From a phage: a DNA stretch of 64,000 nucleotides. The stretch's first letter is position 1. Each line of letters opens with the position of its first letter. Below the pieces are notes generated by a model that saw nothing but the letters and a program-made list of their open reading frames with translations, ran no database searches and was not told the DNA's origin. Shown piece by piece: positions 13,539 through 23,270 of the stretch. The stretch lies in the sequence record PZ445527.1; one strand, given 5' to 3'. A program made the position numbers and the translations under genes.

Positions 13539-13850
13539 TCACAGATCGGGGCGCTTATCTTCTAAACAGTCCGAGCTAATATCTTCTCCGAATCCTACGA
13601 AGCCATCAAATTCATTTGAAATATCCGTAATCATTGCTTCCATTTTCCTAATCTCCGAGGTTTTCATCCCTGCTTTACTATTCTTAAAGTGTTTGCGAGG
13701 ATTCCCGCACATCCAACAAGAACAGATACAAGGAGTAGTAGTGATAATACCTAACCGTTTAGGGCTTTCTTCATGCGGGAAGACTGTCCAATATTTCTTG
13801 CGGTTGTTCTTCACACGTTGCCGGTGATGACGTCTTAATGCTCGATCCAC
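13539..13850 (-). CDS. hypothetical protein with Cys cluster
   Basis: 103 aa; TPCICSCWMCG cysteine cluster; followed by hairpin terminator. Confidence 0.5.
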   Translation of the reverse strand: MDRALRRHHRQRVKNNRKKYWTVFPHEESPKRLGIITTTPCICSCWMCGNPRKHFKNSKAGMKTSEIRKMEAMITDISNEFDGFVGFGEDISSDCLEDKRPDL

Positions 13851-13931
13851 ACATTTCTCCTAAAACTTGGGAGATAAATGGAGTTTGCTCGACTACCTTA
13901 CGTAGTTCGTAGAAACCGTATCCAAGCCCCA

Positions 13932-14300
13932 TTACATCGCCTGAGTAAATGTACGACTAATAACGTCGTTCTGCTGTTCACGCGTCAGTGCGTTAAAACG
14001 CACAGCATAACCAGAAACACGAATGGTTAGCTGAGGATATTTTTCAGGATGTTTCTGAGCATCCAAAAGCTGGTCACGACTTAACACATTGACATTTAGG
14101 TGTTGACCCCCTTCAATTTGAGGGGCGACTTCCACCTTGACTTCACGAAAGGATTCGGGGTCAAAGTGAGGTGTGATACCTTCTAGATCCTCAACTAGAA
14201 CTTTTTGTTTAAGTTCACCATCTTTAGAGTATAATTGAATAATCTGATTATTATGAACAATATTAATTACGCCAGATTTAAGATTTTGATATGCTTTCAT
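13932..14300 (-). CDS. grcA: autonomous glycyl radical cofactor (GrcA/YfiD-like)
   Basis: 122 aa; C-terminus [30 protein letters not shown] carries the glycyl-radical motif RVSGYAV and aligns by eye with E. coli GrcA. Confidence 0.8.
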
Positions 14301-14669
14301 TAGATCTCCCTGATGTTAGAATTTGGCTCAGCTTTTTGTTAACCCAGAAGCAAGATAAAAACTGGAAGGCAGGCTTGCTTTTCTCTTAACCACTAGGCTA
14401 CTTTTGGGTGCTAGCATTCCGGTGAGATTGATGGTCTCGGTTAAGAAGAAAAACACGGGACTTCTGTTTTAACGTCGTGCTCCCGGATTGATGCGACTAC
14501 GTGATTGCTCGCGCTAAGACAATGGCTATCTAAAGTCTTAGCTTCTACATTTATACTCCTGGATAGCATGGAGTTGCAGTCTACTTCCTGCTGTCACGCC
14601 CGGTCATTTATAGAATGTGGACTCTCTTCTCAGCAAGTTCTGGCACTATGGCCTGATCTTCTGTTTGGT

Positions 14670-14745
14670 AGTTAGTAGTGGAATCGAACCAGGTTCCACG
14701 GTTTACAAGACCGTTGCATCGCCAGCAATGCTTTAAGAGCTATCG
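14670..14745 (-). tRNA. tRNA-like element or fragment (anticodon-like loop CTTGTAA, TGT)
   Basis: T-loop GGTTCGATTCC and 3-prime ACCA present with a good anticodon stem-loop, but no pairing 5-prime acceptor strand found; abuts the 3-prime end of the HNH ORF. Confidence 0.3.
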
Positions 14746-15132
14746 TTGTCTTGTTGAAACTCTATTTCTGGCCCTATGCGTAGAGGTCATAGAGTGGCAG
14801 TTAGGGCAGAGAATCTTTAGATTTTCTGGAGAACAGTTAGTTGCATCTCCATCTATATGATCTACCTCAGTTAAAACTGCTCCGTCAATTGGATGTTTCC
14901 CATCCCAACCACATACTTCACAAGCAGTACCACGAGTATCCCACAGCCACTTCCTAACAAAAGGTTTTAATTGTGCAGCTTTACCAGTATAACCAGGTTC
15001 TTCACCTGCCAGCCACTTTAATACTTTTTGCTTTGTCTGGTACTCCTGCTGACAAGCAGGACCACAATACTTACCTGCGGAACCTCTACTTTTAGGTTTT
15101 GTGATTCCGCAATTTAAACAAGTAAACTCCAT
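14740..15132 (-). CDS. HNH endonuclease
   Basis: 130 aa; EVDHIDGDATNCSPENLKILCPNCH HNH motif plus N-terminal Cys pairs. Confidence 0.75.
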   Translation of the reverse strand: MEFTCLNCGITKPKSRGSAGKYCGPACQQEYQTKQKVLKWLAGEEPGYTGKAAQLKPFVRKWLWDTRGTACEVCGWDGKHPIDGAVLTEVDHIDGDATNCSPENLKILCPNCHSMTSTHRARNRVSTRQR

Positions 15133-15296
15133 GTTGCTTCCTATTTCAACGGGATTTCTTTTTCAATAACAAGGGCTTATCAGTCATAACTGTCATTGCC
15201 ATTTGTTGTAGAAATTCAAAGGTGAAGGCTACACGTTCTTCACCAATCTCTACTTCTACACGTTTCTTTTGTTTGTCAACCTTTAATTTTAGGCTA

Positions 15297-15518
15297 TCAG
15301 CCATCTTCGGATTCTCGTTGCTCGGCTACTGCTAGCCAGTCTGGTAAAAGAAACTTAGTACGAAACTCTTCATACGTTTCTTCTGGATAAAAGCTAAAAC
15401 CCCCTTTCTCATCATTCAAGATAACAGAGCCGTCAGTTTGTTCATATGCTCGATATGTTTCTCCAATAATGATAACTCGCTTATCAGTACTTTTATTACG
15501 AAACTCAAAAACGTGCAT
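15297..15518 (-). CDS. hypothetical protein
   Basis: 73 aa ORF within the tRNA region. Confidence 0.45.
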   Translation of the reverse strand: MHVFEFRNKSTDKRVIIIGETYRAYEQTDGSVILNDEKGGFSFYPEETYEEFRTKFLLPDWLAVAEQRESEDG

Positions 15519-15534
15519 AACGTTTCCTTAAAGT

Positions 15535-15610
15535 TGGAGCGGCTAGAGGGAATCGAACCCTACTCAGCGAGGCTTGGAAGGCCTGCGACACAACCCGTGT
15601 GCTTAACCGC
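15535..15610 (-). tRNA. tRNA-Gly (anticodon TCC)
   Basis: Manual fold: acceptor GCGGTTA/TAGCCGC, anticodon loop CTTCCAA, T-loop TTCGATT, encoded CCA. Confidence 0.7.
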
Positions 15611-15618
15611 TTATTGTT

Positions 15619-15692
15619 TGGCAGGGGATATTGGATTTGAACCAATGATCTCGACTTCAAAGGCCGTTGTGCTAACCGTTACACTACTCTCC
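15619..15692 (-). tRNA. tRNA, possibly Gln (anticodon TTG)
   Basis: T-arm ATTGG-TTCAAAT-CCAAT, anticodon loop CTTTGAA, encoded CCA; acceptor stem pairs imperfectly so boundaries and isotype are uncertain. Confidence 0.45.
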
Positions 15693-15784
15693 AATTGTTT
15701 GGCTGGAGTGCCTGATTCAATCCCAGGCACCTTCGGAGTCAGAGGCCGACGACTTGACAATTGATCTACACCTCAAGAATACTA

Positions 15785-16021
15785 TTAACTAGATGCTGGT
15801 TCTGCTGGCTGAGATACAGCAGGCTGTTCTAATGTATCTGGTGCTGATACAGAGAAAAGAGCTTGTAATGCTGCAATATCACGCTCGTAAGTTTCAATAC
15901 GAGTAGTAAGAGTATCTACCATCTGTTTATGATAGGCTAAGTTATTCTGAGATTCATCTCGAAGGGTTTGCAGTTCTGCAAGACGTGTTAACATAATTTC
16001 ACTAATTAAAGCATTACTCAT
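15785..16021 (-). CDS. hypothetical protein
   Basis: 78 aa ORF, helical heptad-like character. Confidence 0.45.
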   Translation of the reverse strand: MSNALISEIMLTRLAELQTLRDESQNNLAYHKQMVDTLTTRIETYERDIAALQALFSVSAPDTLEQPAVSQPAEPASS

Positions 16022-16211
16022 TTGTTTCTCCTAAATTTTCCGGTTCTTCTAAACGTTTGCCTTCATGATCTACTCGAATAACTCCGCATCCTTCGCAAAT
16101 CACAACTGCACCATAACCTTCTTTGACTTCAGCTTCTGTAATCAAACCAGAAAGATCACCAGTATCTCTGCCCCACATATCAATGGAGCATTGTTTGCAG
16201 AAATCAGCCAT
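16014..16211 (-). CDS. small zinc-ribbon-like protein
   Basis: 65 aa with CKQC and CEGC pairs. Confidence 0.45.
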   Translation of the reverse strand: MADFCKQCSIDMWGRDTGDLSGLITEAEVKEGYGAVVICEGCGVIRVDHEGKRLEEPENLGETNE

Positions 16212-16236
16212 ATTTTATTTCCTATTTAAGTTAATT

Positions 16237-16313
16237 TGGGGTGGCTAGTGGAACTCGAATCCACATAGGCCTGATTCACAATCAGGATCATTAACCAATT
16301 ATGATATAGCCAC
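16237..16313 (-). tRNA. tRNA-His (anticodon GTG)
   Basis: Manual fold: acceptor GTGGCTA/TAGCCAC, D-stem TCAT/ATGA, anticodon stem CCTGA/TCAGG with loop TTGTGAA, T-arm GTGGA-TTCGAGT-TCCAC, CCA encoded. Confidence 0.8.
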
Positions 16314-16534
16314 AATTGAAAACTCGCAGGGTTAGCGAAACCATCCTCAATTAGCATGTTCTAGAATACTAATCAAGTTATCTCCTATTGCACGCAGCTC
16401 AAGACGAGTACGAATTTTCAATTGTGGCGGCTCTCAGAAACTCTTCTATTCTAGCCTCAGAAGCTTACCCCCGAACGCATGTCGGGAAAGTCTTTCCAAG
16501 CGCATCAAATAGCACCGTTACACTTTGAGCCATT

Positions 16535-16610
16535 GATGTATCAAGGAATAGAAGGACTTGAACCTTCATGAGTTAGACCATTTAACTCAACCGCTTTTTA
16601 GGGTATATTT
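16535..16610 (-). tRNA. tRNA-like element (unresolved)
   Basis: Perfect T-arm GAAGG-TTCAAGT-CCTTC on minus strand but acceptor and anticodon arms could not be paired by eye. Confidence 0.25.
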
Positions 16611-16679
16611 CTAGGAGTGGATGTTCCTAGTAAACCTATTCGGCAGTCCCGTCTACCAATTCCGGCATATTCCAAGATT

Positions 16680-16774
16680 TGGAGGTAGGTAAGGGGATCG
16701 AACCATTACACCGTATCACTACGGTCAACCGATTTCAAGTCGGAGTCCATCGCCAGCCGTTGGATTGACCTACC
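16680..16774 (-). tRNA. tRNA-Ser (anticodon TGA), class II
   Basis: Acceptor GGTAGGT/ACCTACC perfect, anticodon loop CTTGAAA, long variable arm, CCA encoded. Confidence 0.75.
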
Positions 16775-16786
16775 TTATAAATTGTT

Positions 16787-16871
16787 TGGTGGGTTAGGAG
16801 AGACTCGAACTCTCACGCACTTAAGCAAGGGCTTCTAAGACCCTCGTGGCTACCAATTACACCACTAACCC
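16787..16871 (-). tRNA. tRNA-Leu (anticodon TAG), class II
   Basis: Acceptor GGGTTAG/CTAACCC, anticodon stem AGGGT/GCCCT with loop CTTAGAA, long variable arm, T-arm GAGAG-TTCGAGT-CTCTC, CCA. Confidence 0.75.
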
Positions 16872-16877
16872 CTAATT

Positions 16878-16952
16878 TGGTGGACAGTAGGAGAGTCGAA
16901 CTCCTCACTCCTGAGTGCAAGTCAGGTATTTTCCCAGATAAACTAACCGCCC
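16878..16952 (-). tRNA. tRNA-Ala (anticodon TGC)
   Basis: Acceptor GGGCGGT with G3-U70 wobble, anticodon stem CCTGA/TCAGG with loop CTTGCAC, T-arm AGGAG-TTCGACT-CTCCT, CCA. Confidence 0.75.
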
Positions 16953-17191
16953 AAATTCTTTAATTTACTAAGGCTATTAGCTCGGCGTAACTACAGCACC
17001 TTCGCTTCAAGCGGAAGGAACCGCGTCATCTCGCAAACCCAATACACTATTCAGTTGCCGCTGAATCTAGTGGACTAATCTAGAACTTCTCCCGAGTCGT
17101 AGGGATCGTGCTTTTTGGCAGCCAGTCCTAGGTCGAGCTAATACCTTAGTGAATTATGATGAGGATTTCTCCCATATCAATTTATATAAAT

Positions 17192-17220
17192 ATTATAACA
17201 AGAAATTAATCATCAAGCAA
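17192..17220 (-). promoter_or_regulatory. sigma70-type promoter upstream of non-coding leader and tRNA-Ala/Leu/Ser
   Basis: TTGCTT, 17 nt spacer, TATAAT, then conserved leader ATATTTATATAAATTGA. Confidence 0.65.
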
Positions 17221-17321
17221 TTGAGTTTTTCTTGAAATTGGTAGCGGGTTCCAGTACTGCCCTGGACTTACTTAGCTTATGAGACTAAGAAGAACTCTAT
17301 GCCTTCCACCCGCAATTGTTT

Positions 17322-17400
17322 GGTTATTCTAGACAGGATTCGAACCTGTTATCACTTGTGCGGACTTACGAGAACCATTCTTTCACTCGAATCGAACGAG
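17322..17400 (-). tRNA. tRNA-like element (unresolved)
   Basis: Perfect T-arm ACAGG-TTCGAAT-CCTGT followed by ACCA; remaining arms not confidently paired. Confidence 0.3.
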
Positions 17401-17567
17401 CTTCTGCCCTAGCCAAGCTGGTTTCCCCATCAACCACGCTAGAATGTTTGATTGTTTTCAGTGCAAGAGTCCGAGTCTTGGACACGACCGTTTCGCAAGT
17501 ACATAGGCAGCTTATCATGAGTCAGCACTTCCGAATTGCTAGCCCCGTGTTCTGCACTGAAATTTTA

Positions 17568-17915
17568 TTAGTTTAACCGTAAAGTATTATCTAATTCACC
17601 ATTAATTGTTCGGCATTCCTCTGGAATTGCTGGTGTGGCCTTGTATTCCCACCACTCAGCACCATCATATTCCCCACGTTCTAGCCAAGTTCCGTCGGCA
17701 AACCATACATTACCATAAAGTAATTGTCCACCGTATCCAGAATCATACTCAAAGTCTAGGTTATCAAGAAAATCCTCAATATCTTCTTCTGTATAGCCTA
17801 AAGGTAATACCCAAACTTTTTTATCCCCATAATACCCGAATTCTATTTTAATACACTTAATTTTAGAATTGGTATTTTTTAAGGCAAGTAACAACTCTTC
17901 TTTAGCATTACGCAT
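17568..17915 (-). CDS. hypothetical protein
   Basis: 115 aa ORF between tRNA groups. Confidence 0.5.
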   Translation of the reverse strand: MRNAKEELLLALKNTNSKIKCIKIEFGYYGDKKVWVLPLGYTEEDIEDFLDNLDFEYDSGYGGQLLYGNVWFADGTWLERGEYDGAEWWEYKATPAIPEECRTINGELDNTLRLN

Positions 17916-17940
17916 AGTATATTCTCATACTGAATTAATT

Positions 17941-18017
17941 TGGCGCGACTGATGGGATTTGAACCCACATTCCCTCCCGTGATAGGGGAGTACCATTACC
18001 AAGCCAGCCACGGTCGC
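17941..18017 (-). tRNA. tRNA with unusual anticodon loop CTATCAC (anticodon ATC, isotype uncertain)
   Basis: Acceptor GCGACCG/CAGTCGC, anticodon stem CTCCC/GGGAG, T-arm GTGGG-TTCAAAT-CCCAT, CCA encoded. Confidence 0.6.
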
Positions 18018-18026
18018 ATAATTTAT

Positions 18027-18212
18027 TTACTCAGCTTTGAGTTTTTCAATAGCTGCATTAAGTTCTTTAAGAAACTCTTTTCGTACATTAAGACGATTGA
18101 GACTTACTAGTATATCATGTTTAAGTTCTTCGATGTATTTCTTCTCAACTTCAATATTGTTGATAGTGCTATCACGATGAACTTCTAGCTGCGCAATCAC
18201 ATTCTTGGACAT
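18027..18212 (-). CDS. hypothetical protein
   Basis: 61 aa ORF, charged helical. Confidence 0.4.
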   Translation of the reverse strand: MSKNVIAQLEVHRDSTINNIEVEKKYIEELKHDILVSLNRLNVRKEFLKELNAAIEKLKAE

Positions 18213-18314
18213 GCTTGTTTCCTCAGTTATTAATGAAAATGGTATCTGTGGCTGAATTAGATGTCAGCAATGATAGCTGGTTGGCTACCGGTTTACTTAA
18301 CTCTACACAGAATT

Positions 18315-18397
18315 TGGCGGGCCGTGTAGGATTCGAACCTACGTTGTCTTTCGACACGGATTAACAATCCGCCGCCAAACCGCTTGGCTAACGACCC
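18315..18397 (-). tRNA. tRNA-Asn-like (anticodon GTT) with extended variable arm
   Basis: Acceptor GGGTCGT/ACGGCCC, D-stem GCCA/TGGC, anticodon stem GCGGA/TCCGT loop TTGTTAA, 13-nt variable hairpin, T-arm GTAGG-TTCGAAT-CCTAC, CCA. Confidence 0.6.
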
Positions 18398-18552
18398 TAA
18401 AAAATTTATATTGCTGACTAGGGTTTTCACCTAGACGGAGTTAGCACCGTAGCGTGTAGCGGCATACCTCTCCAAACCGTGCCTCATCTTTCAATTACGG
18501 AGACAGTGTTCCTACGCGTGCCTGAATTGATTTAACAATTCTTTCAGCAAAT

Positions 18553-18628
18553 TGGACGACCGCATGAGGATTGAACTCACATAAAAAGGATTTGCAATCC
18601 TTCGCCTAAGCCATTCAGCCAACGGTCG
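18553..18628 (-). tRNA. tRNA-Cys (anticodon GCA)
   Basis: Acceptor CGACCGT/GCGGTCG, anticodon stem AAGGA/TCCTT loop TTGCAAA, T-arm GTGAG-TTCAATC-CTCAT, CCA. Confidence 0.75.
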
Positions 18629-18806
18629 ATTTATCTTGTTTTTCGAGATCTTCAAACTCTAAATCATTGAAGTTCCCTAGAGTACGGGTATAGAACCCAT
18701 CCCCTGCGTCATAGCCTGATTTACCACAATCACACATTTTAAATTCGCGCAGGTGTGTGAAAACATGTTCAGAACCACAACACTTAAATCTAACTAATCG
18801 TTTCAT
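18615..18806 (-). CDS. small Cys-containing protein
   Basis: 63 aa; CCGSEH and CDCG motifs; 3-prime end overlaps tRNA-Cys by about 14 nt; promoter at 18835..18863. Confidence 0.4.
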   Translation of the reverse strand: MKRLVRFKCCGSEHVFTHLREFKMCDCGKSGYDAGDGFYTRTLGNFNDLEFEDLEKQDKSTVG

Positions 18807-18834
18807 TAGCTTCTCCAGTTCAATTTATGTAATT

Positions 18835-18863
18835 ATTATATAGAACTTTTGGGAACTAAGCAA
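18835..18863 (-). promoter_or_regulatory. sigma70-type promoter
   Basis: TTGCTT, 17 nt spacer, TATAAT. Confidence 0.6.
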
Positions 18864-19145
18864 CTACATTTTTTAAGAATTTGATGCCTTTCTTTTTCTT
18901 CTTATATTTCCACGTTAATGGATTCTGTCGATTATGAACGCTTGAGATCTTTGTCTCGTCAAAGTTCTTCAATATCATGTAATCACAAGATAATTGTTCT
19001 AGTGGAATGTGATCACCGTCAAAAGCGTATACATAAGGCTGTTGACTAGCACGATAATGATAGACTTTGTTAATTCTACGTTTCAGCGACTTATCCGCGC
19101 AGTAAATAAAGAAGTTTTAAGGGTGCATCAGCATCTCCTTCAATT

Positions 19146-19229
19146 TGGTGCATCGTGCTGGATTTGAACCACCAACCCCGAAGGGCACGGATTTACAGAC
19201 CGCTGCAATAGCCATTCTGCCAACGATGC
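19146..19229 (-). tRNA. tRNA-Tyr (anticodon GTA), class II
   Basis: Acceptor GCATCGT/ACGATGC, D-stem GCAG/TTGC, anticodon stem GCGGT/TCCGT loop CTGTAAA, long variable arm, CCA. Confidence 0.8.
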
Positions 19230-19357
19230 ACATTTAAAAGTATTCAAATACTAGTTTAAACACTTTTAAATATGTTTCCAAATTAGATAACTATTATACC
19301 AAGTTTTAAGGCACTGAGCAAGTCAGATTTTGAAGAACTTGCTCAGTGCTGTATTAG

Positions 19358-19642
19358 TTAGTCGAACTTAGGAGTGACAGATAAGGAGAACGGAAGTTCA
19401 AAAACTTCTTCACCCTCATTACTAACGGTAACTACACGACCTTTAAGTTCAGACATTAAAATATCAATATCAGCTTTTGCATCTGGAGCCATGCCAGCTT
19501 CAATACATTTAGCTTTAACTTCCGGTAAAAGCTCTACGTTATAGAGATAGAGCCACTCAATCTCACCTTCCCAGTCTTCCCAGTCTTCCCAGGATTTGCA
19601 GATTGCACTTTCAATACCAGTTGCTACAACACGATTTTGCAT
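19358..19642 (-). CDS. hypothetical acidic protein
   Basis: 94 aa with WEDWEDWEGEIEW repeat; promoter 19673..19702 upstream. Confidence 0.5.
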   Translation of the reverse strand: MQNRVVATGIESAICKSWEDWEDWEGEIEWLYLYNVELLPEVKAKCIEAGMAPDAKADIDILMSELKGRVVTVSNEGEEVFELPFSLSVTPKFD

Positions 19643-19672
19643 TCGTTAACTCCTTCATCAATTTATATAACT

Positions 19673-19702
19673 ATTATACCAGAAATTTAAAGCAAAAGGC
19701 AA
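19673..19702 (-). promoter_or_regulatory. sigma70-type promoter
   Basis: TATAAT with TTGCCT 18 nt upstream. Confidence 0.5.
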
Positions 19703-19732
19703 GTACATTTTTAAAAATTCTGTTTGGAGGAG

Positions 19733-19939
19733 CTAAACTCCAGATTCTTCTGCCAAGTCTAGACTAATAAGAGTTATAGCCATAATTGCTGCACCGTGTT
19801 CTTTTTCTCCGGTGTTTTTAGCAGAGTCTATAATATCCTTAATCTGTTCGTAATAACTTTTTACTTCTTGTTCAATGCCTGCCTCGGCTATCATGCCTTT
19901 AGTCATGAGTCGTTGCATGGTAATTTCAGTATTAGCCAT
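19733..19939 (-). CDS. hypothetical protein
   Basis: 68 aa ORF. Confidence 0.45.
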   Translation of the reverse strand: MANTEITMQRLMTKGMIAEAGIEQEVKSYYEQIKDIIDSAKNTGEKEHGAAIMAITLISLDLAEESGV

Positions 19940-20114
19940 GTTGTTTCTCCAGTTTCATTTTTAATAGTTTACAAATGAAATCAACGTCTTCATCCGTGCC
20001 TAGATCTCTATCTTCAAGGGTTGCCTTGAAATTTTTTGTTAGTTCCATAAGAATAACTTCCCTGGAACGACGTGTTGGCGGGGGTGGATGTCTATACATC
20101 TTATTTCCTTAATT

Positions 20115-20189
20115 TGGTGGGTCGGAGGAGAATCTAACTCCTACTCGTTAGCTTATGAGGCCACCGCTTTAACTTTAAGCTACCGACCC
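20115..20189 (-). tRNA. tRNA-Met or Ile2 (anticodon CAT)
   Basis: Acceptor GGGTCGG/CCGACCC perfect, D-stem GCTT/AAGC, anticodon loop CTCATAA, T-arm AGGAG-TTAGATT-CTCCT, CCA. Confidence 0.75.
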
Positions 20190-20195
20190 TATGTT

Positions 20196-20284
20196 TGGCG
20201 GAAGAAGTGGGAATCGAACCCACAAGGCTATATTTCAAACCGACAGATTAGCAATCTGCTGCAATACCGTTATGCTATTCTTCC
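20196..20284 (-). tRNA. tRNA-Ser (anticodon GCT), class II
   Basis: Acceptor GGAAGAA/TTCTTCC, anticodon stem GCAGA/TCTGT loop TTGCTAA, long variable arm, T-arm GTGGG-TTCGATT-CCCAC, CCA. Confidence 0.8.
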
Positions 20285-20298
20285 GAATTTATAAATAT

Positions 20299-20327
20299 AT
20301 TATATTAGAAATTTAGCTTCATAGCAA
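20299..20327 (-). promoter_or_regulatory. sigma70-type promoter directly upstream of tRNA-Ser(GCT)/tRNA-Met
   Basis: TTGCTA, 17 nt spacer, TATAAT, with the tRNA 5-prime end about 15 nt downstream. Confidence 0.65.
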
Positions 20328-20823
20328 GAAAATTTTTCAAGTTTTCGGTAGACATCTCATCCACATCTACAGGAGAAACAAATCCATTTAATTGTCTAGC
20401 AAATTTTTTACCAGCAGGATCATTATCCCCAACAGCTACCAATTTAAAAGGTAGTAATTTCAATTGCTTTAATAGCGCTTTTCCTGGAGAAGAACCCAAC
20501 ATTGCCAAGGCTGGATAACCAGCGTTATGTAACGCAACTGCCTTAAATACAGATTCAGCAATCAATACCACTTTTTCATCTCCATTGAGAGTTTCTAGTC
20601 CCCATACACACTGTGTAGTAGAATAAGTAAAATATCTAGCTTCAAAGGGGCACTTACCATGACCTTTTGGAGCAGAAGGATTATAAGTCTGATAGCCTCT
20701 CAACATCCCAGAGAAGTCATACAATGGGACTGTTAGCCATCCTTCCGGGCTTAACCAGCAATGATATTTATCTGTATCAAACCCTCTAGATAAGAGATGT
20801 TCTGTTAGTTCATCAACAGTCAT
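20305..20823 (-). CDS. hypothetical protein (possible Toprim-like fold)
   Basis: 172 aa; VAVGDNDPAGKKF resembles a DxD Toprim motif, assignment tentative. Confidence 0.5.
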   Translation of the reverse strand: MTVDELTEHLLSRGFDTDKYHCWLSPEGWLTVPLYDFSGMLRGYQTYNPSAPKGHGKCPFEARYFTYSTTQCVWGLETLNGDEKVVLIAESVFKAVALHNAGYPALAMLGSSPGKALLKQLKLLPFKLVAVGDNDPAGKKFARQLNGFVSPVDVDEMSTENLKNFLAMKLNF

Positions 20824-20860
20824 ATTTGATCCCCTAGTTAGTTGTATAAATACATTATAC

Positions 20861-20894
20861 AGAAAAGCCCTGCGCTCTCCAGTGAACGCAGGGC
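20861..20894 (-). terminator. rho-independent terminator
   Basis: Stem GCCCTGCG...CGCAGGGC followed by T-run on minus strand, after SPFH gene stop. Confidence 0.55.
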
Positions 20895-20919
20895 TTACTT
20901 CGAATATTACGTGTGGGTA

Positions 20920-21867
20920 TTACTTGTTACGCATATCCATAATCATTTGGCCATCGTAACCAGTGCCAACCACAGTCTGCGGTACACCACCTTGATACTT
21001 CTGAGCACGAATCATTTCAACTTCTAGTTGCTTCCAGCGAATCATCTCAGGAGTAATGGTACGTTGCAGAGCGGCGTTAGCTTCAGCTTCTTTCTTAGCT
21101 GCGTACAGTTTAGCATCTGCATCACGTTCGTTTGCAATAGCTTGGTTGTTACGAGCTTCACGATCTGCTTCTGCTTGTTTAACCTTCTGCTGTGCTTCTT
21201 GTTCAACACGAGCCAACTCAGCTTTCGCAGCATTAACTTGTTCTTCACGAACTTTGGTATTCTGTACCTGTTCCATGATTACAGGCGGCAAAGTAATATC
21301 CTGAAGGAACACTTGCTTAACTGTGTAACCATAAGGGCGTGCATACTCTTCAACTTCCTGTTGAATTGCAGTTTGCAATTGAGCCTGAATTTTAGCATCA
21401 AACAAATCTTGTGCTTTAGGTACAGACTTACCAAACTCACGAATAGTAGACAGTAATTTTTCAGTTACATACTTGTCTAGTGCCTGATCCTGAGTACCTG
21501 CATTAATACGGTTAATCGGTGCCTTAGAACCATCAAACTGCAACATAACAGTCAGGTCAACAGTGGATTTAAACTTATCCTGACTAGGAACCTGAAGTTT
21601 ATCTAATTTTACAGCAATATCTTTTGTACTGAAAGTATCGAAAGATGCAAACGGGTTTACAATATGGAAACCAGGTAATACTGGATTAGGGTCTACTTTA
21701 CCAAGAAATGTTTGGGTTTTAACCGTACCATCAGAAACAATAGTATATGAATTAAAAGCTAGGATTAAACCTGCTAAACCAACTACAGCACCAATACCCC
21801 AACGTTTAATAGTACGGATTACTTTCTGCTCAGAAGTCAGTTCTTTCATATTTTTAGTAGCAAACAT
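20920..21867 (-). CDS. SPFH/band-7 (HflK/C, stomatin-like) domain protein
   Basis: 315 aa; N-terminal TM helix, SPFH-like core, long Ala/Gln/Glu-rich coiled-coil C-terminus. Confidence 0.65.
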   Translation of the reverse strand: MFATKNMKELTSEQKVIRTIKRWGIGAVVGLAGLILAFNSYTIVSDGTVKTQTFLGKVDPNPVLPGFHIVNPFASFDTFSTKDIAVKLDKLQVPSQDKFKSTVDLTVMLQFDGSKAPINRINAGTQDQALDKYVTEKLLSTIREFGKSVPKAQDLFDAKIQAQLQTAIQQEVEEYARPYGYTVKQVFLQDITLPPVIMEQVQNTKVREEQVNAAKAELARVEQEAQQKVKQAEADREARNNQAIANERDADAKLYAAKKEAEANAALQRTITPEMIRWKQLEVEMIRAQKYQGGVPQTVVGTGYDGQMIMDMRNK

Positions 21868-21901
21868 ATATTTCCTTTGTTTTAGTTACAGTTAATAAAA
21901 T

Positions 21902-21976
21902 TGGCCGAGGTGACAGGATTCGAACCTGCATAAAGGAATTTAGAAGACTCCTGCCTCTCCCTTAGACTACACCCCG
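21902..21976 (-). tRNA. tRNA-Arg (anticodon TCT)
   Basis: Acceptor CGGGGTG/CACCTCG, D-stem GTCT/AGGC, anticodon stem GGAGT/ATTCC loop CTTCTAA, T-arm GCAGG-TTCGAAT-CCTGT, CCA. Confidence 0.8.
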
Positions 21977-22479
21977 TTTAAGTATTTTTAAGAACTCTCG
22001 TAAAAACTCTTAAAAATACAGACGATACCGGGAGAGTCATAAGTCTCACTCATTAAGTATTTCAAGACAAAATACAGTAACGTCTATTATTTTCCAGTTT
22101 AAGTCAGGGTGACTTAGTGGTTATGTCCTGCGGTATATTGAGGACTCGGTTAGGCTTGGGGTCATGACTTCCCGCCTTTTGCTGCTACTCAACAGGAGTT
22201 ATCGCGAATTACCTGTGCTATTGTGCACCATTAGTGACATCTCTCATGCCAGCATTTCCCACTTTGTGGATAGCTTGAAAAACTACTCCGATACGGAGAA
22301 AGAACTTCACTATCCTAGAATACCTTCTAAAGTTCTTCTTTAGCCTGGACATAGTTAAATCGTAATAAAACTATTCAGCAGACCGGTTGGTTAGTCTGGA
22401 ACCAACTACCGCGTGGTTTAGGCAGTGCGCAACTAACCTCGGAAGCTTTTACGTTAAAAGCACCAGTTATCCAGTTCTT

Positions 22480-22552
22480 ACCGACCGTAGGATTCGAACC
22501 TACATCTTCCACCAGTTACGGCTTGATAATACCAATTATACTAGGACGGCAG
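22480..22552 (-). tRNA. tRNA-like element, possibly degenerate
   Basis: Canonical T-arm GTAGG-TTCGAAT-CCTAC and D-loop AATTGGTA, but no convincing anticodon stem and no encoded CCA. Confidence 0.3.
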
Positions 22553-22626
22553 TGTTACTACATAAGTGATTTCCACACCCCACTATTTATAAATTAGAAA
22601 AGAATTACTCTCTAATTTATGAATAT

Positions 22627-22655
22627 ATTATACAGAATTTATAAGCATTTAGCAA
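22627..22655 (-). promoter_or_regulatory. sigma70-type promoter reading into the tRNA-like element and non-coding region
   Basis: TTGCTA, 17 nt spacer, TATAAT. Confidence 0.6.
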
Positions 22656-22663
22656 ATGAATTT

Positions 22664-23098
22664 TTAGAAAAACTCGCTAGCAATCAAGGCGGCTGTTTTA
22701 CCATCATAACGCCCTGTAAACTCTGCCTTAATAGTTTTCATTAAGAGAGCTTTGGTAATACCTGGGTTTAGCTTAACCAATTCTGCAAAGTATTTACGAA
22801 TTTCAGTTTCAGTTAACTGTTGCAGTGCATAATCATGCTCTAAACGCGCTAAAAGATCTAAGTATTCAGCATCAGGGGTATAGTCAACATTCGATTTTTC
22901 AGCAGCAATCCGTGTATTCTCAATTGCTTTGAATTGTGATTTCAACCAGTTAGTAAACTCCAGCTCAGTTACGCAATCTTTATCAATACGTTGCAGGTCT
23001 CCTAGAACCGTACTTAGATGCTTAACTGATACAGCGTCACCACTTTTGCGAGCAGCTTCAATCAACTCTCGCAGTACATAAAGCATATTCATGCCCAT
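22664..23098 (-). CDS. hypothetical protein
   Basis: 144 aa ORF. Confidence 0.55.
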   Translation of the reverse strand: MGMNMLYVLRELIEAARKSGDAVSVKHLSTVLGDLQRIDKDCVTELEFTNWLKSQFKAIENTRIAAEKSNVDYTPDAEYLDLLARLEHDYALQQLTETEIRKYFAELVKLNPGITKALLMKTIKAEFTGRYDGKTAALIASEFF

Positions 23099-23099
23099 T

Positions 23100-23270
23100 A
23101 TTTCATCCCCAATGCTTGGTTGAAAGATTGTTCCGTCATAACTGCTGAGACTTTGGCGAAATCAAACTTTTTAGGGTTAGTAGTGATCTCAGCAACGTTG
23201 GAAGTTTTAACAGTTTTCGTAGTACGAATACCGCGAGTGTTAACACCAATGACGATCAAGTTTTTCATAT
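23100..23270 (-). CDS. small hypothetical protein (below 60 aa track cutoff)
   Basis: ATG at 23270 preceded by GAGAGGAAG RBS and promoter 23300..23328; about 56 aa ending just before the next gene start. Confidence 0.4.

What the first reader, a model, noticed from the sequence alone, without database searches (positions are those of the whole stretch)
14301..22600. tRNA cluster interleaved with HNH endonuclease, small ORFs and several unresolved tRNA-like stretches
Thirteen tRNAs fold well by eye (Gly, His, Ser x2, Leu, Ala, Asn-like, Cys, Tyr, Met/Ile, Arg, plus two with uncertain identity). Several intervening segments have no ORF but contain T-loop-like motifs I could not fold (14301..14670, 16314..16679, 17230..17570, 18398..18552, 21977..22480).
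Basis: seen in the sequence. Interest (0 to 1): 0.5.

Follow-up and report, generated by a model that had tools for sequence, protein, structure and literature searches.

The report
Phage tRNA cluster with structured RNAs

Summary
The window is a T5-like phage (Demerecviridae), and 14301-22600 is its tRNA-rich region, all on the minus strand. Tools confirm 12 tRNAs, plus tRNA-Gly(UCC). There is also one tRNA-like module, one degenerate Gln-like copy and one Thr/Met chimera that cannot form an acceptor stem.

None of the five "unresolved" stretches holds a further functional tRNA.
- 16314-16679 is RNAIII, RNAI and RNA1.
- 16953-17570 is RNA2H, a CAU tRNA-like element, RNA2 and an unannotated 121-nt element (Y).
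- 21977-22480 is the body of RNAX, about 637 nt.
- These names come from the T5 st0, BF23 and DT571/2 GenBank records, which call them "stable" or "tRNA-like RNA with unknown functions".
- 18398-18552 (D) and 14301-14669 (A) carry no RNA annotation in any record I inspected.

Compensatory base changes support RNA structure for A, D, the RNAX 3' domain, RNA1, RNA2H and RNA2. RNAIII, X and Y vary too little to test. RNAX, A and D recur in other Demerecviridae lineages, and D always lies between tRNA genes. No Rfam family other than tRNA matches.

The likely origin is co-transcription with the tRNAs and release by tRNA-processing enzymes. Function is unknown. The cluster itself is ordinary; the RNAs are an under-studied, testable class.

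The parts
21977..22613 (-). RNAX, about 637 nt, running from the start site of promoter P16-17 to the 5' end of tRNA-Arg. It has a 5' tRNA-like module (22479-22550), a mosaic middle part and a conserved 3' domain (21977-22265). The 3' domain carries a 9-nt hairpin loop RAGUCAUGA, the hairpin AGUCACCYUGACU and a terminal 15-bp hairpin.
   Evidence: 97.5% identical to BF23 'RNAX, stable RNA with unknown functions' and to the DT571/2 rnaX feature of 636 nt. Covariation on the 3' domain: 95.1% of cells paired, 13 pairs changed on both sides against 1-8 in slid controls. No conserved ORF. Homologues in Pectobacterium DU_PP_V and Klebsiella Sugarlandvirus phages.
22479..22550 (-). tRNA-like 5' module of RNAX. 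It has a canonical T-arm. The acceptor stem has a G-U and a U-U pair. No CCA is encoded and the anticodon arm is irregular.
   Evidence: RF00005 35.5 bits. Only relaxed ARAGORN calls it. Marked pseudo, 'tRNA-OTHER' or 'tRNA-Sec' in relatives. Compensatory T-stem and acceptor changes are visible.
21902..21976 (-). tRNA-Arg(UCU), directly abutting the 3' end of RNAX.
   Evidence: ARAGORN; Rfam 49.3 bits.
20920..21867 (-). SPFH/Band-7 protein gene.
   Evidence: Pfam Band_7, E=1.8e-17.
20305..20823 (-). Toprim-domain ('primase-like') ORF.
   Evidence: Pfam Toprim_2, E=3e-5.
20196..20284 (-). tRNA-Ser(GCU).
20115..20189 (-). tRNA with anticodon CAU. The gene at this position is annotated Ile2 in BF23 and Ile(CAU) in DT571/2, and Met elsewhere. 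The allele here differs from the T5/BF23 one.
19146..19229 (-). tRNA-Tyr(GUA). The allele differs from T5/BF23.
18553..18628 (-). tRNA-Cys(GCA).
18398..18552 (-). Element D, a structured RNA of about 148 nt that fills the Cys-Asn spacer. It has a closing stem, a long-range helix and four hairpins around an invariant core AUGCCGCUACACGCUACGG. No record I inspected annotates it as RNA.
   Evidence: 220 phage records hold it. It is 98% identical to the S147 copy, while the flanking ORFs are 68-86% identical. Covariation: 98.6% of cells paired, 13 of 39 pairs changed on both sides against 0-3 in slid controls. It always lies between tRNA genes, including in Klebsiella phages.
18315..18397 (-). tRNA-Asn(GUU).
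18240..18312 (-). RNA3, a tRNA-like RNA of 73 nt. It is cloverleaf-like and ends in ACCA.
   Evidence: 98.6% identical to DT571/2 RNA3. BF23 labels it 'tRNA-like RNA with unknown functions'. Three compensatory pairs.
17941..18017 (-). tRNA-Asp with anticodon AUC. All 33 relatives checked have GUC.
17447..17567 (-). Element Y, 121 nt. Predicted to fold as a closed three-hairpin structure. Not annotated as RNA in any record I inspected.
   Evidence: Fold z-score -3.0. 220 records at 91.6-99% identity. G-U to A-C cells 57:3, but almost no variation, so covariation cannot be tested.
17323..17446 (-). RNA2, a tRNA-like RNA with an acceptor-like stem, a D-like arm, a canonical T-arm and an expanded middle.
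   Evidence: 96% identical to the T5 rna2 feature. BF23 annotation. Seven compensatory pairs, G-U to A-C 53:2. Relaxed ARAGORN hit at 17377-17444.
17230..17322 (-). Element X, a tRNA-like element with anticodon loop CUCAUAA, a non-canonical T-loop and an encoded ACCA end. It occupies roughly the position that RNAIV holds in T5/BF23.
   Evidence: Read from the sequence. RNAIV is absent from the window. Few homologues and no variation.
17165..17239 (-). Early promoter, homologous to BF23 P13b. It drives RNA2H, tRNA-Ala, Leu, Ser, RNA1, RNAI, RNAIII and tRNA-His.
   Evidence: 86.7% identical to the BF23 P13b feature.
16972..17143 (-). RNA2H, 172 nt. A 17-bp closing stem extends to 16965-17150 and encloses three branches.
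   Evidence: 98.8% identical to T5 RNA2H. Fold z-score -4.0. Ten compensatory pairs, G-U to A-C 165:4.
16878..16952 (-). tRNA-Ala(UGC).
16787..16871 (-). tRNA-Leu(UAG).
16680..16774 (-). tRNA-Ser(UGA).
   Evidence: ARAGORN. In the Rfam scan only a sub-threshold tRNA-Sec match, 34.7 bits against a cutoff of 47.
16532..16676 (-). RNA1, a tRNA-like RNA of 145 nt, with a T-arm and an acceptor-like closing stem.
   Evidence: 94.5% identical to T5 RNA1. Nine compensatory pairs, G-U to A-C 107:4. Sub-threshold RF00005 hit of 22.2 bits at 16543-16612.
16425..16531 (-). RNAI, 107 nt. It has a GGCUC...GAGCC closing stem and an encoded GCCA 3' end.
   Evidence: 99% identical to T5 RNAI. Two compensatory pairs.
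16315..16420 (-). RNAIII, 106 nt. A 12-bp closing stem encloses three hairpins. It ends 1 nt before tRNA-His.
   Evidence: 100% identical to T5 RNAIII. Fold z-score -2.85. Invariant among relatives, so covariation cannot be tested.
16237..16313 (-). tRNA-His(GUG).
15703..15775 (-). Degenerate copy resembling tRNA-Gln(CUG).
   Evidence: RF00005 only 20 bits. ARAGORN rejects it even at the relaxed setting. 84-86% identical to the tRNA-Gln(CUG) of slur09 and BF23.
15619..15693 (-). tRNA-Gln(UUG).
15535..15611 (-). tRNA-Gly(UCC), with an atypical D and T stem.
   Evidence: Relaxed ARAGORN. 99-100% identical to the copy annotated tRNA-Gly in relatives.
14740..15132 (-). HNH (homing-type) endonuclease ORF, 130 aa.
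   Evidence: Pfam HNH and HNH_3. Annotated HNH endonuclease in HdH2.
14670..14740 (-). Chimeric pseudo-tRNA. The 5' part is tRNA-Thr(UGU) up to the T-loop and the 3' part is tRNA-Met. The acceptor strands are not complementary.
   Evidence: Three-way alignment. RF00005 24.5 bits, below the cutoff of 29. ARAGORN rejects it.
14301..14669 (-). Element A, a structured RNA of about 370 nt. It contains an H-type pseudoknot, a 17-bp helix seen in three or four different sequences, and a candidate kissing-loop pair. Its last 75 nt are invariant and end at the ribosome-binding site of the GrcA-like ORF. No record I inspected annotates it as RNA.
   Evidence: 149 phage records cover at least 80% of it. 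Covariation: 96.4% of cells paired, 14 of 67 pairs changed on both sides against 1-2 in slid controls. Homologues in Klebsiella phage Riker and Pantoea phage AAS21.
13932..14300 (-). GrcA-like glycyl-radical cofactor ORF, downstream of A.
   Evidence: Pfam Gly_radical, E=3.6e-18.

Best explanation
The region is the early-transcribed tRNA-rich region of a T5-like (Demerecviridae) phage.

Besides about 13 working tRNA genes, an HNH homing-type endonuclease and small ORFs, roughly a quarter of it (about 2.1 kb) encodes at least eleven structured non-coding RNAs on the same strand as the tRNAs: RNAX, RNA3, D, Y, RNA2, X, RNA2H, RNA1, RNAI, RNAIII and A.

Shown:
- Seven of these are homologous to named T5/BF23 RNAs.
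- RNA structure in A, D, RNAX, RNA1, RNA2H and RNA2 is conserved through compensatory changes.

Inferred from the layout:
- The RNAs are made as parts of the polycistronic tRNA transcripts from the sigma-70 early promoters P16-17, P15b, P14b, P13b and others.
- They are cut out by the host tRNA-maturation machinery. RNase P would define the 3' ends of RNAX, D and RNAIII, which abut tRNA 5' ends. tRNA 3' processing would define the 5' ends of D, RNA3 and RNA1.
- Closing stems, tRNA-like T-arm and acceptor modules, and encoded CCA ends would make the products stable.

Inferred, with low confidence:
- They act in trans as accessory host-takeover or anti-defence RNAs, for example as tRNA mimics or as an assembling large RNA.
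- They are not leftovers of tRNA genes.
For: Identity of the region:
- 94-96% nucleotide identity to T5-like phages.
- tRNAs; Pfam domains.

Identity of the RNAs:
- 94-100% identity to the misc_RNA features of T5 st0, BF23 and DT571/2.

Structure:
- Covariation with slid-partner controls for A, the RNAX 3' domain and D.
- Compensatory pairs in RNA1 (9), RNA2H (10), RNA2 (7) and RNA3 (3).
- G-U cells greatly outnumber A-C cells in all of them (for example 165:4, 107:4, 36:0), which points to RNA on this strand.
- Fold z-scores range from -2 to -4 on the sense strand, against -0.66 for antisense RNAX.

Selection:
- D is 98% identical between Tequintavirus and Epseptimavirus, while neighbouring ORFs are 68-86% identical.
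- RNAX motifs are kept in order across three Demerecviridae lineages.
- No conserved ORF in RNAX.

Biogenesis:
- The RNAs are flush with tRNA ends (coordinates).
- BF23 promoters map upstream of them.

Accessory role:
- The T5 st0 deletion removes RNAX and the phage is viable.
- Phages with deletions of the tRNA-rich region become sensitive to retrons Eco2 and Eco7 (PMC11555353).
Against: - I examined no expression data. 'Stable RNA' is the depositors' wording in GenBank, and I could not read the primary papers.
- RNAIII, X and Y vary too little for any covariation test, so their structures are only predictions.
- The RNAX and A structures were derived partly from the window sequence, which favours the observed register over the slid controls.
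- No phenotype is known. In PMC11555353 only the fragments carrying tRNA-Tyr and ORF75 rescued the deletion phages from the two retrons tested.
- High identity among phages that recombine often can reflect recent exchange rather than selection.
Confidence: 0.78

Rival explanations
1. The stretches are decaying tRNA genes and recombination scars with no function of their own. They would persist only by hitch-hiking in a region that homing endonucleases shuffle often.
For: - Two elements really are of this kind: the Thr/Met chimera at 14670-14740 and the degenerate Gln(CUG) copy at 15703-15775.
- RNA1, RNA2, RNA3, X and the RNAX 5' module retain T-arm or acceptor remnants.
- The region is mosaic, with alternative alleles and inserted HNH ORFs.
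Against: - Compensatory changes maintain helices that are not part of any tRNA cloverleaf. These include the A pseudoknot and 17-bp helix, the D long-range helix, and RNAX helices P2, P4, P6 and P8.
- Loops and junction sequences are invariant across subfamilies.
- D is more conserved than the flanking ORFs.
Confidence: 0.1
2. The elements act in cis. They would be processing scaffolds or spacers that ensure correct tRNA maturation, or 5' leaders or attenuators of the downstream genes. For example, A could be a regulatory leader of the GrcA-like gene, and the RNAX terminal hairpin a processing or attenuation signal for tRNA-Arg.
For: - A ends at the ribosome-binding site and start codon of the GrcA-like ORF and precedes a Gly_radical ORF in five relatives.
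- The RNAX terminal hairpin is almost identical across subfamilies and lies 5 nt from tRNA-Arg.
- All the elements are embedded in tRNA transcription units.
Against: - T5 and BF23 express the same GrcA-like gene without A.
- A-like elements in Klebsiella phage Riker and Pantoea phage AAS21 are not followed by a Gly_radical ORF.
- In Klebsiella Sugarlandvirus the RNAX-like element is followed by an ORF, not tRNA-Arg.
- D occurs between different tRNA pairs and in either order.
- A 640-nt multi-domain RNA is far more than a spacer needs.
- No riboswitch or leader family matches.
Confidence: 0.12
3. The conserved sequences work at the DNA level, for example as homing-endonuclease target sites, protein-binding palindromes, or replication or nick-associated sites.
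For: - Invariant palindromes are present: GTCATGAC, AGTCACCYTGACT, and the arms of the terminal hairpin.
- The region is rich in HNH endonucleases.
Against: - Helices tolerate G-U but almost never A-C, which is strand-specific RNA behaviour.
- Folding is asymmetric between the sense and antisense strands.
- Long-range and pseudoknotted pairings covary.
Confidence: 0.04
4. The gaps hold unannotated small protein genes.
For: Mechanical ORFs of 30-60 aa exist in the gaps. Some annotators call 'hypothetical proteins' there.
Against: - The ORFs are not conserved among homologues. For example, the 44-aa ORF in RNAX is missing from L028, L046, L047 and L053.
- Indels are not in multiples of three.
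- The substitution pattern is pairwise compensatory.
Confidence: 0.02

Closest known systems
T5/BF23 'stable RNAs' RNAI, RNAIII, RNAIV, RNA2H and RNAX, and 'tRNA-like RNAs' RNA1, RNA2 and RNA3 (GenBank AY692264, NC_042564, NC_047749)
   Same: Seven of the window's elements are these RNAs: 94-100% identity, same order, same strand and same flanking tRNAs.
   Different: - The window lacks RNAIV and has a CAU tRNA-like element (X) roughly in its place.
- It also carries A, D and Y, which those records do not annotate. A and D are absent from T5/BF23, where an ORF or a tRNA occupies the spot.
- None of these RNAs is in Rfam, and none has a described structure or function that I could find.
Small stable RNAs encoded in the phage T4 tRNA gene cluster (species 1 and 2, also called bands C and D). 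This is from my own knowledge and was not checked here.
   Same: They are phage-encoded, co-transcribed with tRNAs, released by tRNA-processing enzymes and stable, with function unknown for decades.
   Different: No sequence relationship was tested. The T5-type set is larger, with eleven elements of up to about 640 nt.
ROOL and GOLLD large ornate RNAs (Rfam). Their association with phages and tRNAs, and their self-assembly, is recalled from the literature and was not checked here.
   Same: RNAX is likewise large (570-780 nt), phage-encoded, adjacent to or fused with tRNA-like elements, and multi-domain. It has an invariant palindromic hairpin loop that could mediate self-association.
   Different: No match to either covariance model even at E<=10, nor in relatives at E<=1. 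Different hosts (Enterobacterales). Oligomerisation is pure conjecture.
tRNA (RF00005) and tRNA-like domains such as YrlA/Y-RNA-like or mascRNA
   Same: RNA1, RNA2, RNA3, X and the RNAX 5' module keep an acceptor-like stem plus a T-arm. Several have an encoded CCA end.
   Different: Scores fall below the tRNA threshold, except the RNAX module. Anticodon or D regions are expanded or irregular. A, D, Y, RNAIII and RNA2H have no tRNA-like signature at all.

Membership tests
tRNA (Rfam RF00005 / ARAGORN) | Cloverleaf scoring at or above the gathering score of 29 bits, or an ARAGORN call, inside the five 'unresolved' stretches. | tested here: not met
   No hit at or above 29 bits in 14301-14669, 16314-16679, 16953-17570, 18398-18552 or 21977-22478. 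Only 22.2 bits at 16543-16612, inside RNA1. Relaxed ARAGORN gives pseudo-hits in RNA1 and RNA2 only.
tRNA (Rfam RF00005 / ARAGORN) | A pairable 7-bp acceptor stem for 14670-14740 (the 'Thr' candidate). | tested here: not met
   The 5' strand comes from tRNA-Thr and the 3' strand from tRNA-Met, and they are not complementary. Rfam score 24.5 bits.
T5/BF23 stable and tRNA-like RNAs (RNAI, RNAIII, RNA1, RNA2, RNA2H, RNA3, RNAX) | Sequence homology and the same position as the annotated misc_RNA features. | tested here: met
   Identities: RNAIII 100%, RNAI 99%, RNA1 94.5%, RNA2H 98.8%, rna2 96%; RNA3 98.6%; RNAX 97.5% over 630 nt. The order relative to the tRNAs is the same.
T5/BF23 stable and tRNA-like RNAs | Accumulation as a discrete stable RNA in infected cells. 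| not testable with these tools
   Rests on the depositors' annotation only. No RNA-seq or Northern data were available.
Structured RNA (general criterion) | Base pairs maintained by compensatory substitutions beyond controls. | tested here: met
   Pairs changed on both sides, against slid controls: A 14 versus 1-2; D 13 versus 0-3; RNAX 3' domain 13 versus 1-8. Compensatory pairs: RNA1 9, RNA2H 10, RNA2 7. Inconclusive for RNAIII, X and Y, which hardly vary.
ROOL / GOLLD / other large Rfam RNAs, tmRNA, RNase P RNA, riboswitches | A match to the family covariance model. | tested here: not met
   cmscan of 13800-23200 at E<=10 returns only tRNA-clan matches and chance-level hits. The same holds at E<=1 for relatives L068, L069, L072, L076 and L077. 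ARAGORN finds no tmRNA.
HNH homing endonuclease | An HNH nuclease domain in an ORF inserted among tRNA genes. | tested here: met
   PF01844 at 24.5 bits and PF13392 at 24.9 bits, both above their cutoffs, for 14740-15132. Homing activity itself was not tested.
cis-regulatory leader of the GrcA-like gene (for element A) | Obligatory linkage of the element to the regulated gene across genomes. | tested here: not met
   T5 and BF23 have the gene without A. Riker and AAS21 have A-like elements without a Gly_radical ORF downstream.

The most novel reading that the evidence does not exclude
T5-like phages may carry, inside their tRNA operons, several distinct RNA families that Rfam lacks and that have autonomous trans-acting functions.

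The most striking candidate is RNAX. It could be an enterobacterial-phage counterpart of the large 'ornate' phage RNAs, with a tRNA-like handle fused to a multi-domain body of about 500 nt. Its invariant palindromic loop (UCAUGA) could drive self-association.

D and A would be new compact RNA folds that move between tRNA clusters of different Demerecviridae and larger Klebsiella phages. They might serve as decoys or inhibitors of tRNA-directed host defences or of tRNA-processing enzymes.
Probability: 0.3. Interest if true: 0.75.

Novelty: new member of a known kind. Interest (0 to 1): 0.45.

Why it matters
- The T5 tRNA-rich region is now known to counter tRNA-cleaving defences through tRNA-Tyr and tRNA-Lys. 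Yet about a quarter of it encodes structured RNAs that have been labelled 'unknown function' for decades and are missing from Rfam.
- Several of these RNAs show structure conserved by compensatory changes (A, D, RNAX, RNA1, RNA2H, RNA2). They also recur across Demerecviridae genera, always in tRNA operons. Together this turns an old annotation footnote into concrete targets.
- T5 is genetically tractable, and viable deletions of this region exist (T5 st0, T5n). Each RNA can therefore be deleted or supplied in trans and screened against panels of defence systems.
- For annotation, these models would stop pipelines from calling spurious 'hypothetical proteins' or 'tRNA-OTHER' and 'tRNA-Sec' in hundreds of T5-like genomes.

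Tried and rejected
- **Extra tRNAs in the gaps.** Rejected by Rfam at E<=10 and by relaxed ARAGORN.
- **Any other Rfam family.** None matched in the window or in divergent relatives.
- **Homologues near the SPFH gene of more distant Demerecviridae (L031-L039).** Neither nhmmer nor motif searches found any.
- **Wider sampling by motif scans.**
  - IMG/VR returned only contigs already held, plus one 147-kb contig.
  - The metagenome scan added eight near-identical loci.
  - The genome scan with the 19-nt D core gave three hits in bacterial MAGs. They sit in unrelated sequence with no flanking similarity and no tRNAs, so they are chance matches and D is not a host RNA.
- **Literature.** Four full-text searches found no paper in the library describing these RNAs. 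Two further searches failed on term syntax.
- **Element A as a decayed tRNA-Met.** Rejected. The 'tRNA-Met' annotated under the match in relatives is the neighbouring upstream gene.
- **Coding potential of RNAX.** Rejected.
- **mafft-qinsi structural alignment.** Not available. MAFFT misaligns swapped modules, namely RNAX helices P8/P9 and stem 2 of the A pseudoknot, so the counts understate the pairing.

Full report
**What the region is.** Megablast of 14301-22600 finds 542 phage records. The best are T5-like Salmonella and Escherichia phages (Demerecviridae, Tequintavirus/Epseptimavirus) at 94-96% identity. Annotated relatives show the same layout: tRNAs, small ORFs, HNH endonucleases, a Toprim 'primase-like' ORF and an SPFH/Band-7 ORF. 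Pfam confirms, in the window:
- HNH at 14740-15132
- Toprim_2 at 20305-20823
- Band_7 at 20920-21867
- Gly_radical at 13932-14300

Everything relevant is on the minus strand. BF23's annotated early promoters map onto the window:
- P16-17 at 22675-22609
- P15b at 20347-20273
- P15c at 19721-19647
- P14a at 19343-19270
- P14b at 18883-18809
- P13b at 17239-17165

**The tRNAs.** ARAGORN at default settings tRNAs: Gln-UUG, His, Ser-UGA, Leu-UAG, Ala, Asp, Asn, Cys, Tyr, CAU, Ser-GCU and Arg-UCU. Rfam RF00005 supports 11 of them at 44-61 bits. Ser-UGA is reported only as a sub-threshold tRNA-Sec match of 34.7 bits. tRNA-Gly(UCC) at 15535-15611 is found only with relaxed thresholds, but it is 99-100% identical to the annotated T5/BF23/HdH2 gene.

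Three further tRNA-like objects are not working tRNAs:
- 22479-22550 scores 35.5 bits. It has a U-U mismatch in the acceptor stem and no CCA, and relatives mark it pseudo, 'OTHER' or 'Sec'.
- 15703-15775 is a degenerate Gln(CUG) copy at 20 bits.
- 14670-14740 is identical to tRNA-Thr(UGU) up to the T-loop. It then switches to the 3' half of a tRNA-Met, so the acceptor strands cannot pair.

It named neither Gln nor Asp.

**The 'unresolved' stretches map to named T5 RNAs.** The T5 st0 record annotates six misc_RNAs in this region. Five of them match the window:
- RNAIII at 16315-16420 (100%)
- RNAI at 16425-16531 (99%)
- RNA1 at 16532-16676 (94.5%)
- RNA2H at 16972-17143 (98.8%)
- rna2 at 17323-17446 (96%)

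RNAIV is absent. The BF23 tRNA-region record calls RNAI, RNAIII, RNAIV, RNA2H and RNAX 'stable RNA with unknown functions'. It calls RNA1, RNA2 and RNA3 'tRNA-like RNA with unknown functions'. DT571/2 annotates a 636-nt RNAX directly upstream of tRNA-Arg, and also RNA3. BF23 RNAX aligns to window 22606-21977 at 97.5%. RNA3 aligns to 18312-18240 at 98.6%.

- 16314-16679 is RNAIII, RNAI and RNA1.
- 16953-17570 is RNA2H, promoter P13b, a CAU tRNA-like element (X, 17230-17322), RNA2 and a 121-nt element (Y, 17447-17567).
- 21977-22480 is the body of RNAX.

Three elements carry no RNA annotation in any record I inspected: 18398-18552 (D), 14301-14669 (A) and Y. Most records show 'none' under the match.

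**Are they structured RNAs?** Single-sequence folds give closed multibranch structures. The z-scores are -4.0 (RNA2H), -3.0 (Y), -2.85 (RNAIII), -2.35 (RNA1), -2.1 (RNAX sense, against -0.66 antisense) and -2.0 (A).

I collected homologues from IMG/VR, metagenomes and GenBank phages. RNAalifold-based counting on these gave:
- RNA1: 9 compensatory pairs, G-U to A-C cells 107:4
- RNA2H: 10 compensatory pairs, 165:4
- RNA2: 7 compensatory pairs, 53:2
- RNA3: 3 compensatory pairs
- RNAI: 2 compensatory pairs
- RNAIII, X and Y: almost invariant, so untestable

The strong G-U over A-C asymmetry argues for RNA on this strand rather than a DNA palindrome.

**Element D.** It occurs in 220 phage records. 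It is 98% identical between this phage and Epseptimavirus S147, although the flanking tRNA-Cys is 88% identical and the neighbouring ORFs 68-86%. With Klebsiella Sugarlandvirus copies and a copy from a 146-kb Klebsiella phage, 39 predicted pairs are 98.6% paired. Thirteen pairs change on both sides, against 0-3 in the slid controls and 0 of 500 shuffles. The core AUGCCGCUACACGCUACGG is invariant.

D always lies between tRNA genes, but between different ones: Cys-D-Asn here, Asn-D-Cys in Sugarlandvirus, Ser-D-Ser in P8734/L094. The three 19-mer hits in bacterial MAGs are chance matches.

**Element A.** 149 records cover at least 80% of it. In relatives it follows tRNA-Met and precedes the GrcA-like ORF. 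T5 and BF23 lack it, and there the tRNA abuts the ribosome-binding site.

On seven distinct sequences, my structure of nine helices is 96.4% paired. It includes an H-type pseudoknot. Fourteen pairs change on both sides, against 1-2 in the slid controls. Details:
- The 17-bp helix occurs in three different sequences, and in a fourth in Pantoea phage AAS21.
- Pseudoknot stem 2 reads CGGGA/UCCCG, CUGGAA/UUCCAG or CAGGAG/CUCCUG.
- A loop-loop pairing GCUAUC/GAUAGC becomes GCCGUC/GACGGU in Klebsiella phage Riker.
- A-like elements in Riker and AAS21 are not followed by a Gly_radical ORF. This argues against a dedicated leader role.

**RNAX.** It runs from the P16-17 start site (about 22613) to the base before tRNA-Arg (21977). 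The alignment shows swapped modules between invariant islands. The islands include GAUAACU, AAACCACG, GUGGGAAAUG, the 9-nt loop RAGUCAUGA, AGUCACCYUGACU and UAAACUGGAAGAUA.

On an unrefined MAFFT alignment of 29 distinct 3' domains, a 63-pair structure is 95.1% paired. Thirteen pairs change on both sides, against 1-8 in the slid controls and 0 of 500 shuffles. Several helices have entirely different sequences in different phages:
- The stem closing the conserved AAYUCGMGAUAAYU loop is ACAGG/CCUGU in some phages and GCUAGGAAG/CUUCCUAGC in others.
- P6 is GUCCU/AGGAC, GCACU/AGUGU or GUUCUC/GAGAAC.

No ORF is conserved. The same architecture occurs in Pectobacterium phage DU_PP_V (Mccorquodalevirinae): tRNA-like module, about 510 nt, then tRNA-Arg, with the GGAGUCAUGACC motif and an almost identical terminal hairpin. 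The three signature motifs occur in the same order in Klebsiella Sugarlandvirus phages. The T5 st0 deletion removes RNAX, so it is dispensable in the laboratory.

**How it most likely works.** Homology, conserved RNA structure and position are shown. Biogenesis is inferred:
- The RNAs lie in the tRNA transcription units.
- Their boundaries coincide with tRNA ends. RNAX, D and RNAIII end at or within one base of a tRNA 5' end. D starts directly after tRNA-Cys, and RNA3 and RNA1 start two and three bases after a tRNA 3' end.
- Most have a terminal closing stem.
- Several have T-arm and acceptor modules or encoded CCA ends (RNAI GCCA; RNA3 and X ACCA).

So RNase P and the tRNA 3'-processing enzymes should release them as stable species.

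Function is not shown. The region is accessory and contributes to evasion of tRNA-cleaving defences (PMC11555353). That makes tRNA mimicry or another trans-acting host-takeover role the most plausible guess, but no phenotype has been assigned to these RNAs.

**Comparison with known systems and verdict.** No Rfam family except tRNA matches the window at E<=10, or divergent relatives at E<=1. ARAGORN finds no tmRNA. The closest known things are the T5/BF23 RNAs themselves, of which seven window elements are members by homology and synteny. By analogy only, two others resemble them: the small stable RNAs of the T4 tRNA cluster, and the large phage-associated ROOL/GOLLD RNAs. Membership of ROOL/GOLLD was tested and not met.

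The tRNA cluster is ordinary and most of the RNAs are already named. The additions here are:
- a complete map of the region
- evidence from compensatory changes that A, D, RNAX, RNA1, RNA2H and RNA2 fold as RNA
- recognition of A, D and Y as further members, not annotated as RNA in the records I inspected
- their spread across Demerecviridae lineages

I searched the literature four times and found nothing on these RNAs in the held library.

Noticed in passing
window 17941-18017 (-): tRNA-Asp has anticodon AUC (loop CUAUCAC). All 33 homologous copies in the fetched loci have GUC. An A34 tRNA-Asp would lose the G34 that is normally queuosine-modified. This is either a real anticodon mutation or a sequencing error.
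   Followed up: partly
window 14670-14740 (-): Chimeric pseudo-tRNA. It is tRNA-Thr(UGU) up to the T-loop and is then joined to the 3' half of the tRNA-Met that precedes element A in relatives. This looks like a deletion by recombination between two T-loops, which removed the intervening ORFs and tRNA-Ile.
   Followed up: yes
window 19146-19229, 20115-20189, 16878-16952, 16787-16871 (-): The tRNA-Tyr, tRNA(CAU), tRNA-Ala and tRNA-Leu alleles have little or no blastn similarity to the T5, BF23 or slur09 alleles at the same positions. Whole tRNA genes have been replaced within a conserved scaffold. This is notable because T5 tRNA-Tyr is the retron-Eco7 counter-defence (PMC11555353).
   Followed up: no
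L078, L079, L081 (299-526); L080 (247-390); L094: Element D lies between tRNA-Asn and tRNA-Cys in the opposite order in Klebsiella Sugarlandvirus phages. There it is followed by about 80 further non-coding bases. In a 146-kb Klebsiella phage it lies between two tRNA-Ser genes.
   Followed up: partly
L076 about 560-1190 (Klebsiella phage Riker): The A-like element is expanded. It contains an inserted module closely resembling the T-arm half of RNA1 (GAGAUAAAUGGUCUAUCUUGUGAAGGUUCGAUCCCUUC). The non-coding RNAs seem to be built from exchangeable modules.
   Followed up: no
window 21980-22017 (-), also L068-L070: The terminal hairpin of RNAX (GUAUYUUUAAGAG...GAGUUCUUAAARAUAC, 15 bp here) is nearly identical across three Demerecviridae lineages, although the rest of RNAX diverges. 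It contains G-U pairs and sits 5 nt before tRNA-Arg. It could be an RNase III-type or protein-binding site.
   Followed up: partly
window 14301-14375 (-): The last 75 nt of element A, up to the ribosome-binding site, are 97-100% identical in many phages whose upstream sequence is unrelated (hits H80-H86). They may form a second pseudoknot (GCAAG/CUUGC with CCAG/CUGG), but they are invariant and so untestable.
   Followed up: no
L047 9923-9996; L049 9924-9996: The RNAX 5' tRNA-like module is annotated 'tRNA-Sec (TCA)' or 'tRNA-OTHER' in Epseptimavirus records. This is probably a systematic mis-annotation of a non-tRNA module.
   Followed up: no
L015/L004 (T5) and L061, RNAX 3' domain: T5 and one metagenomic relative carry an insertion of about 85 nt that duplicates the AGUCACCUUGAC-UAAACUGGAA motif within RNAX.
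   Followed up: no
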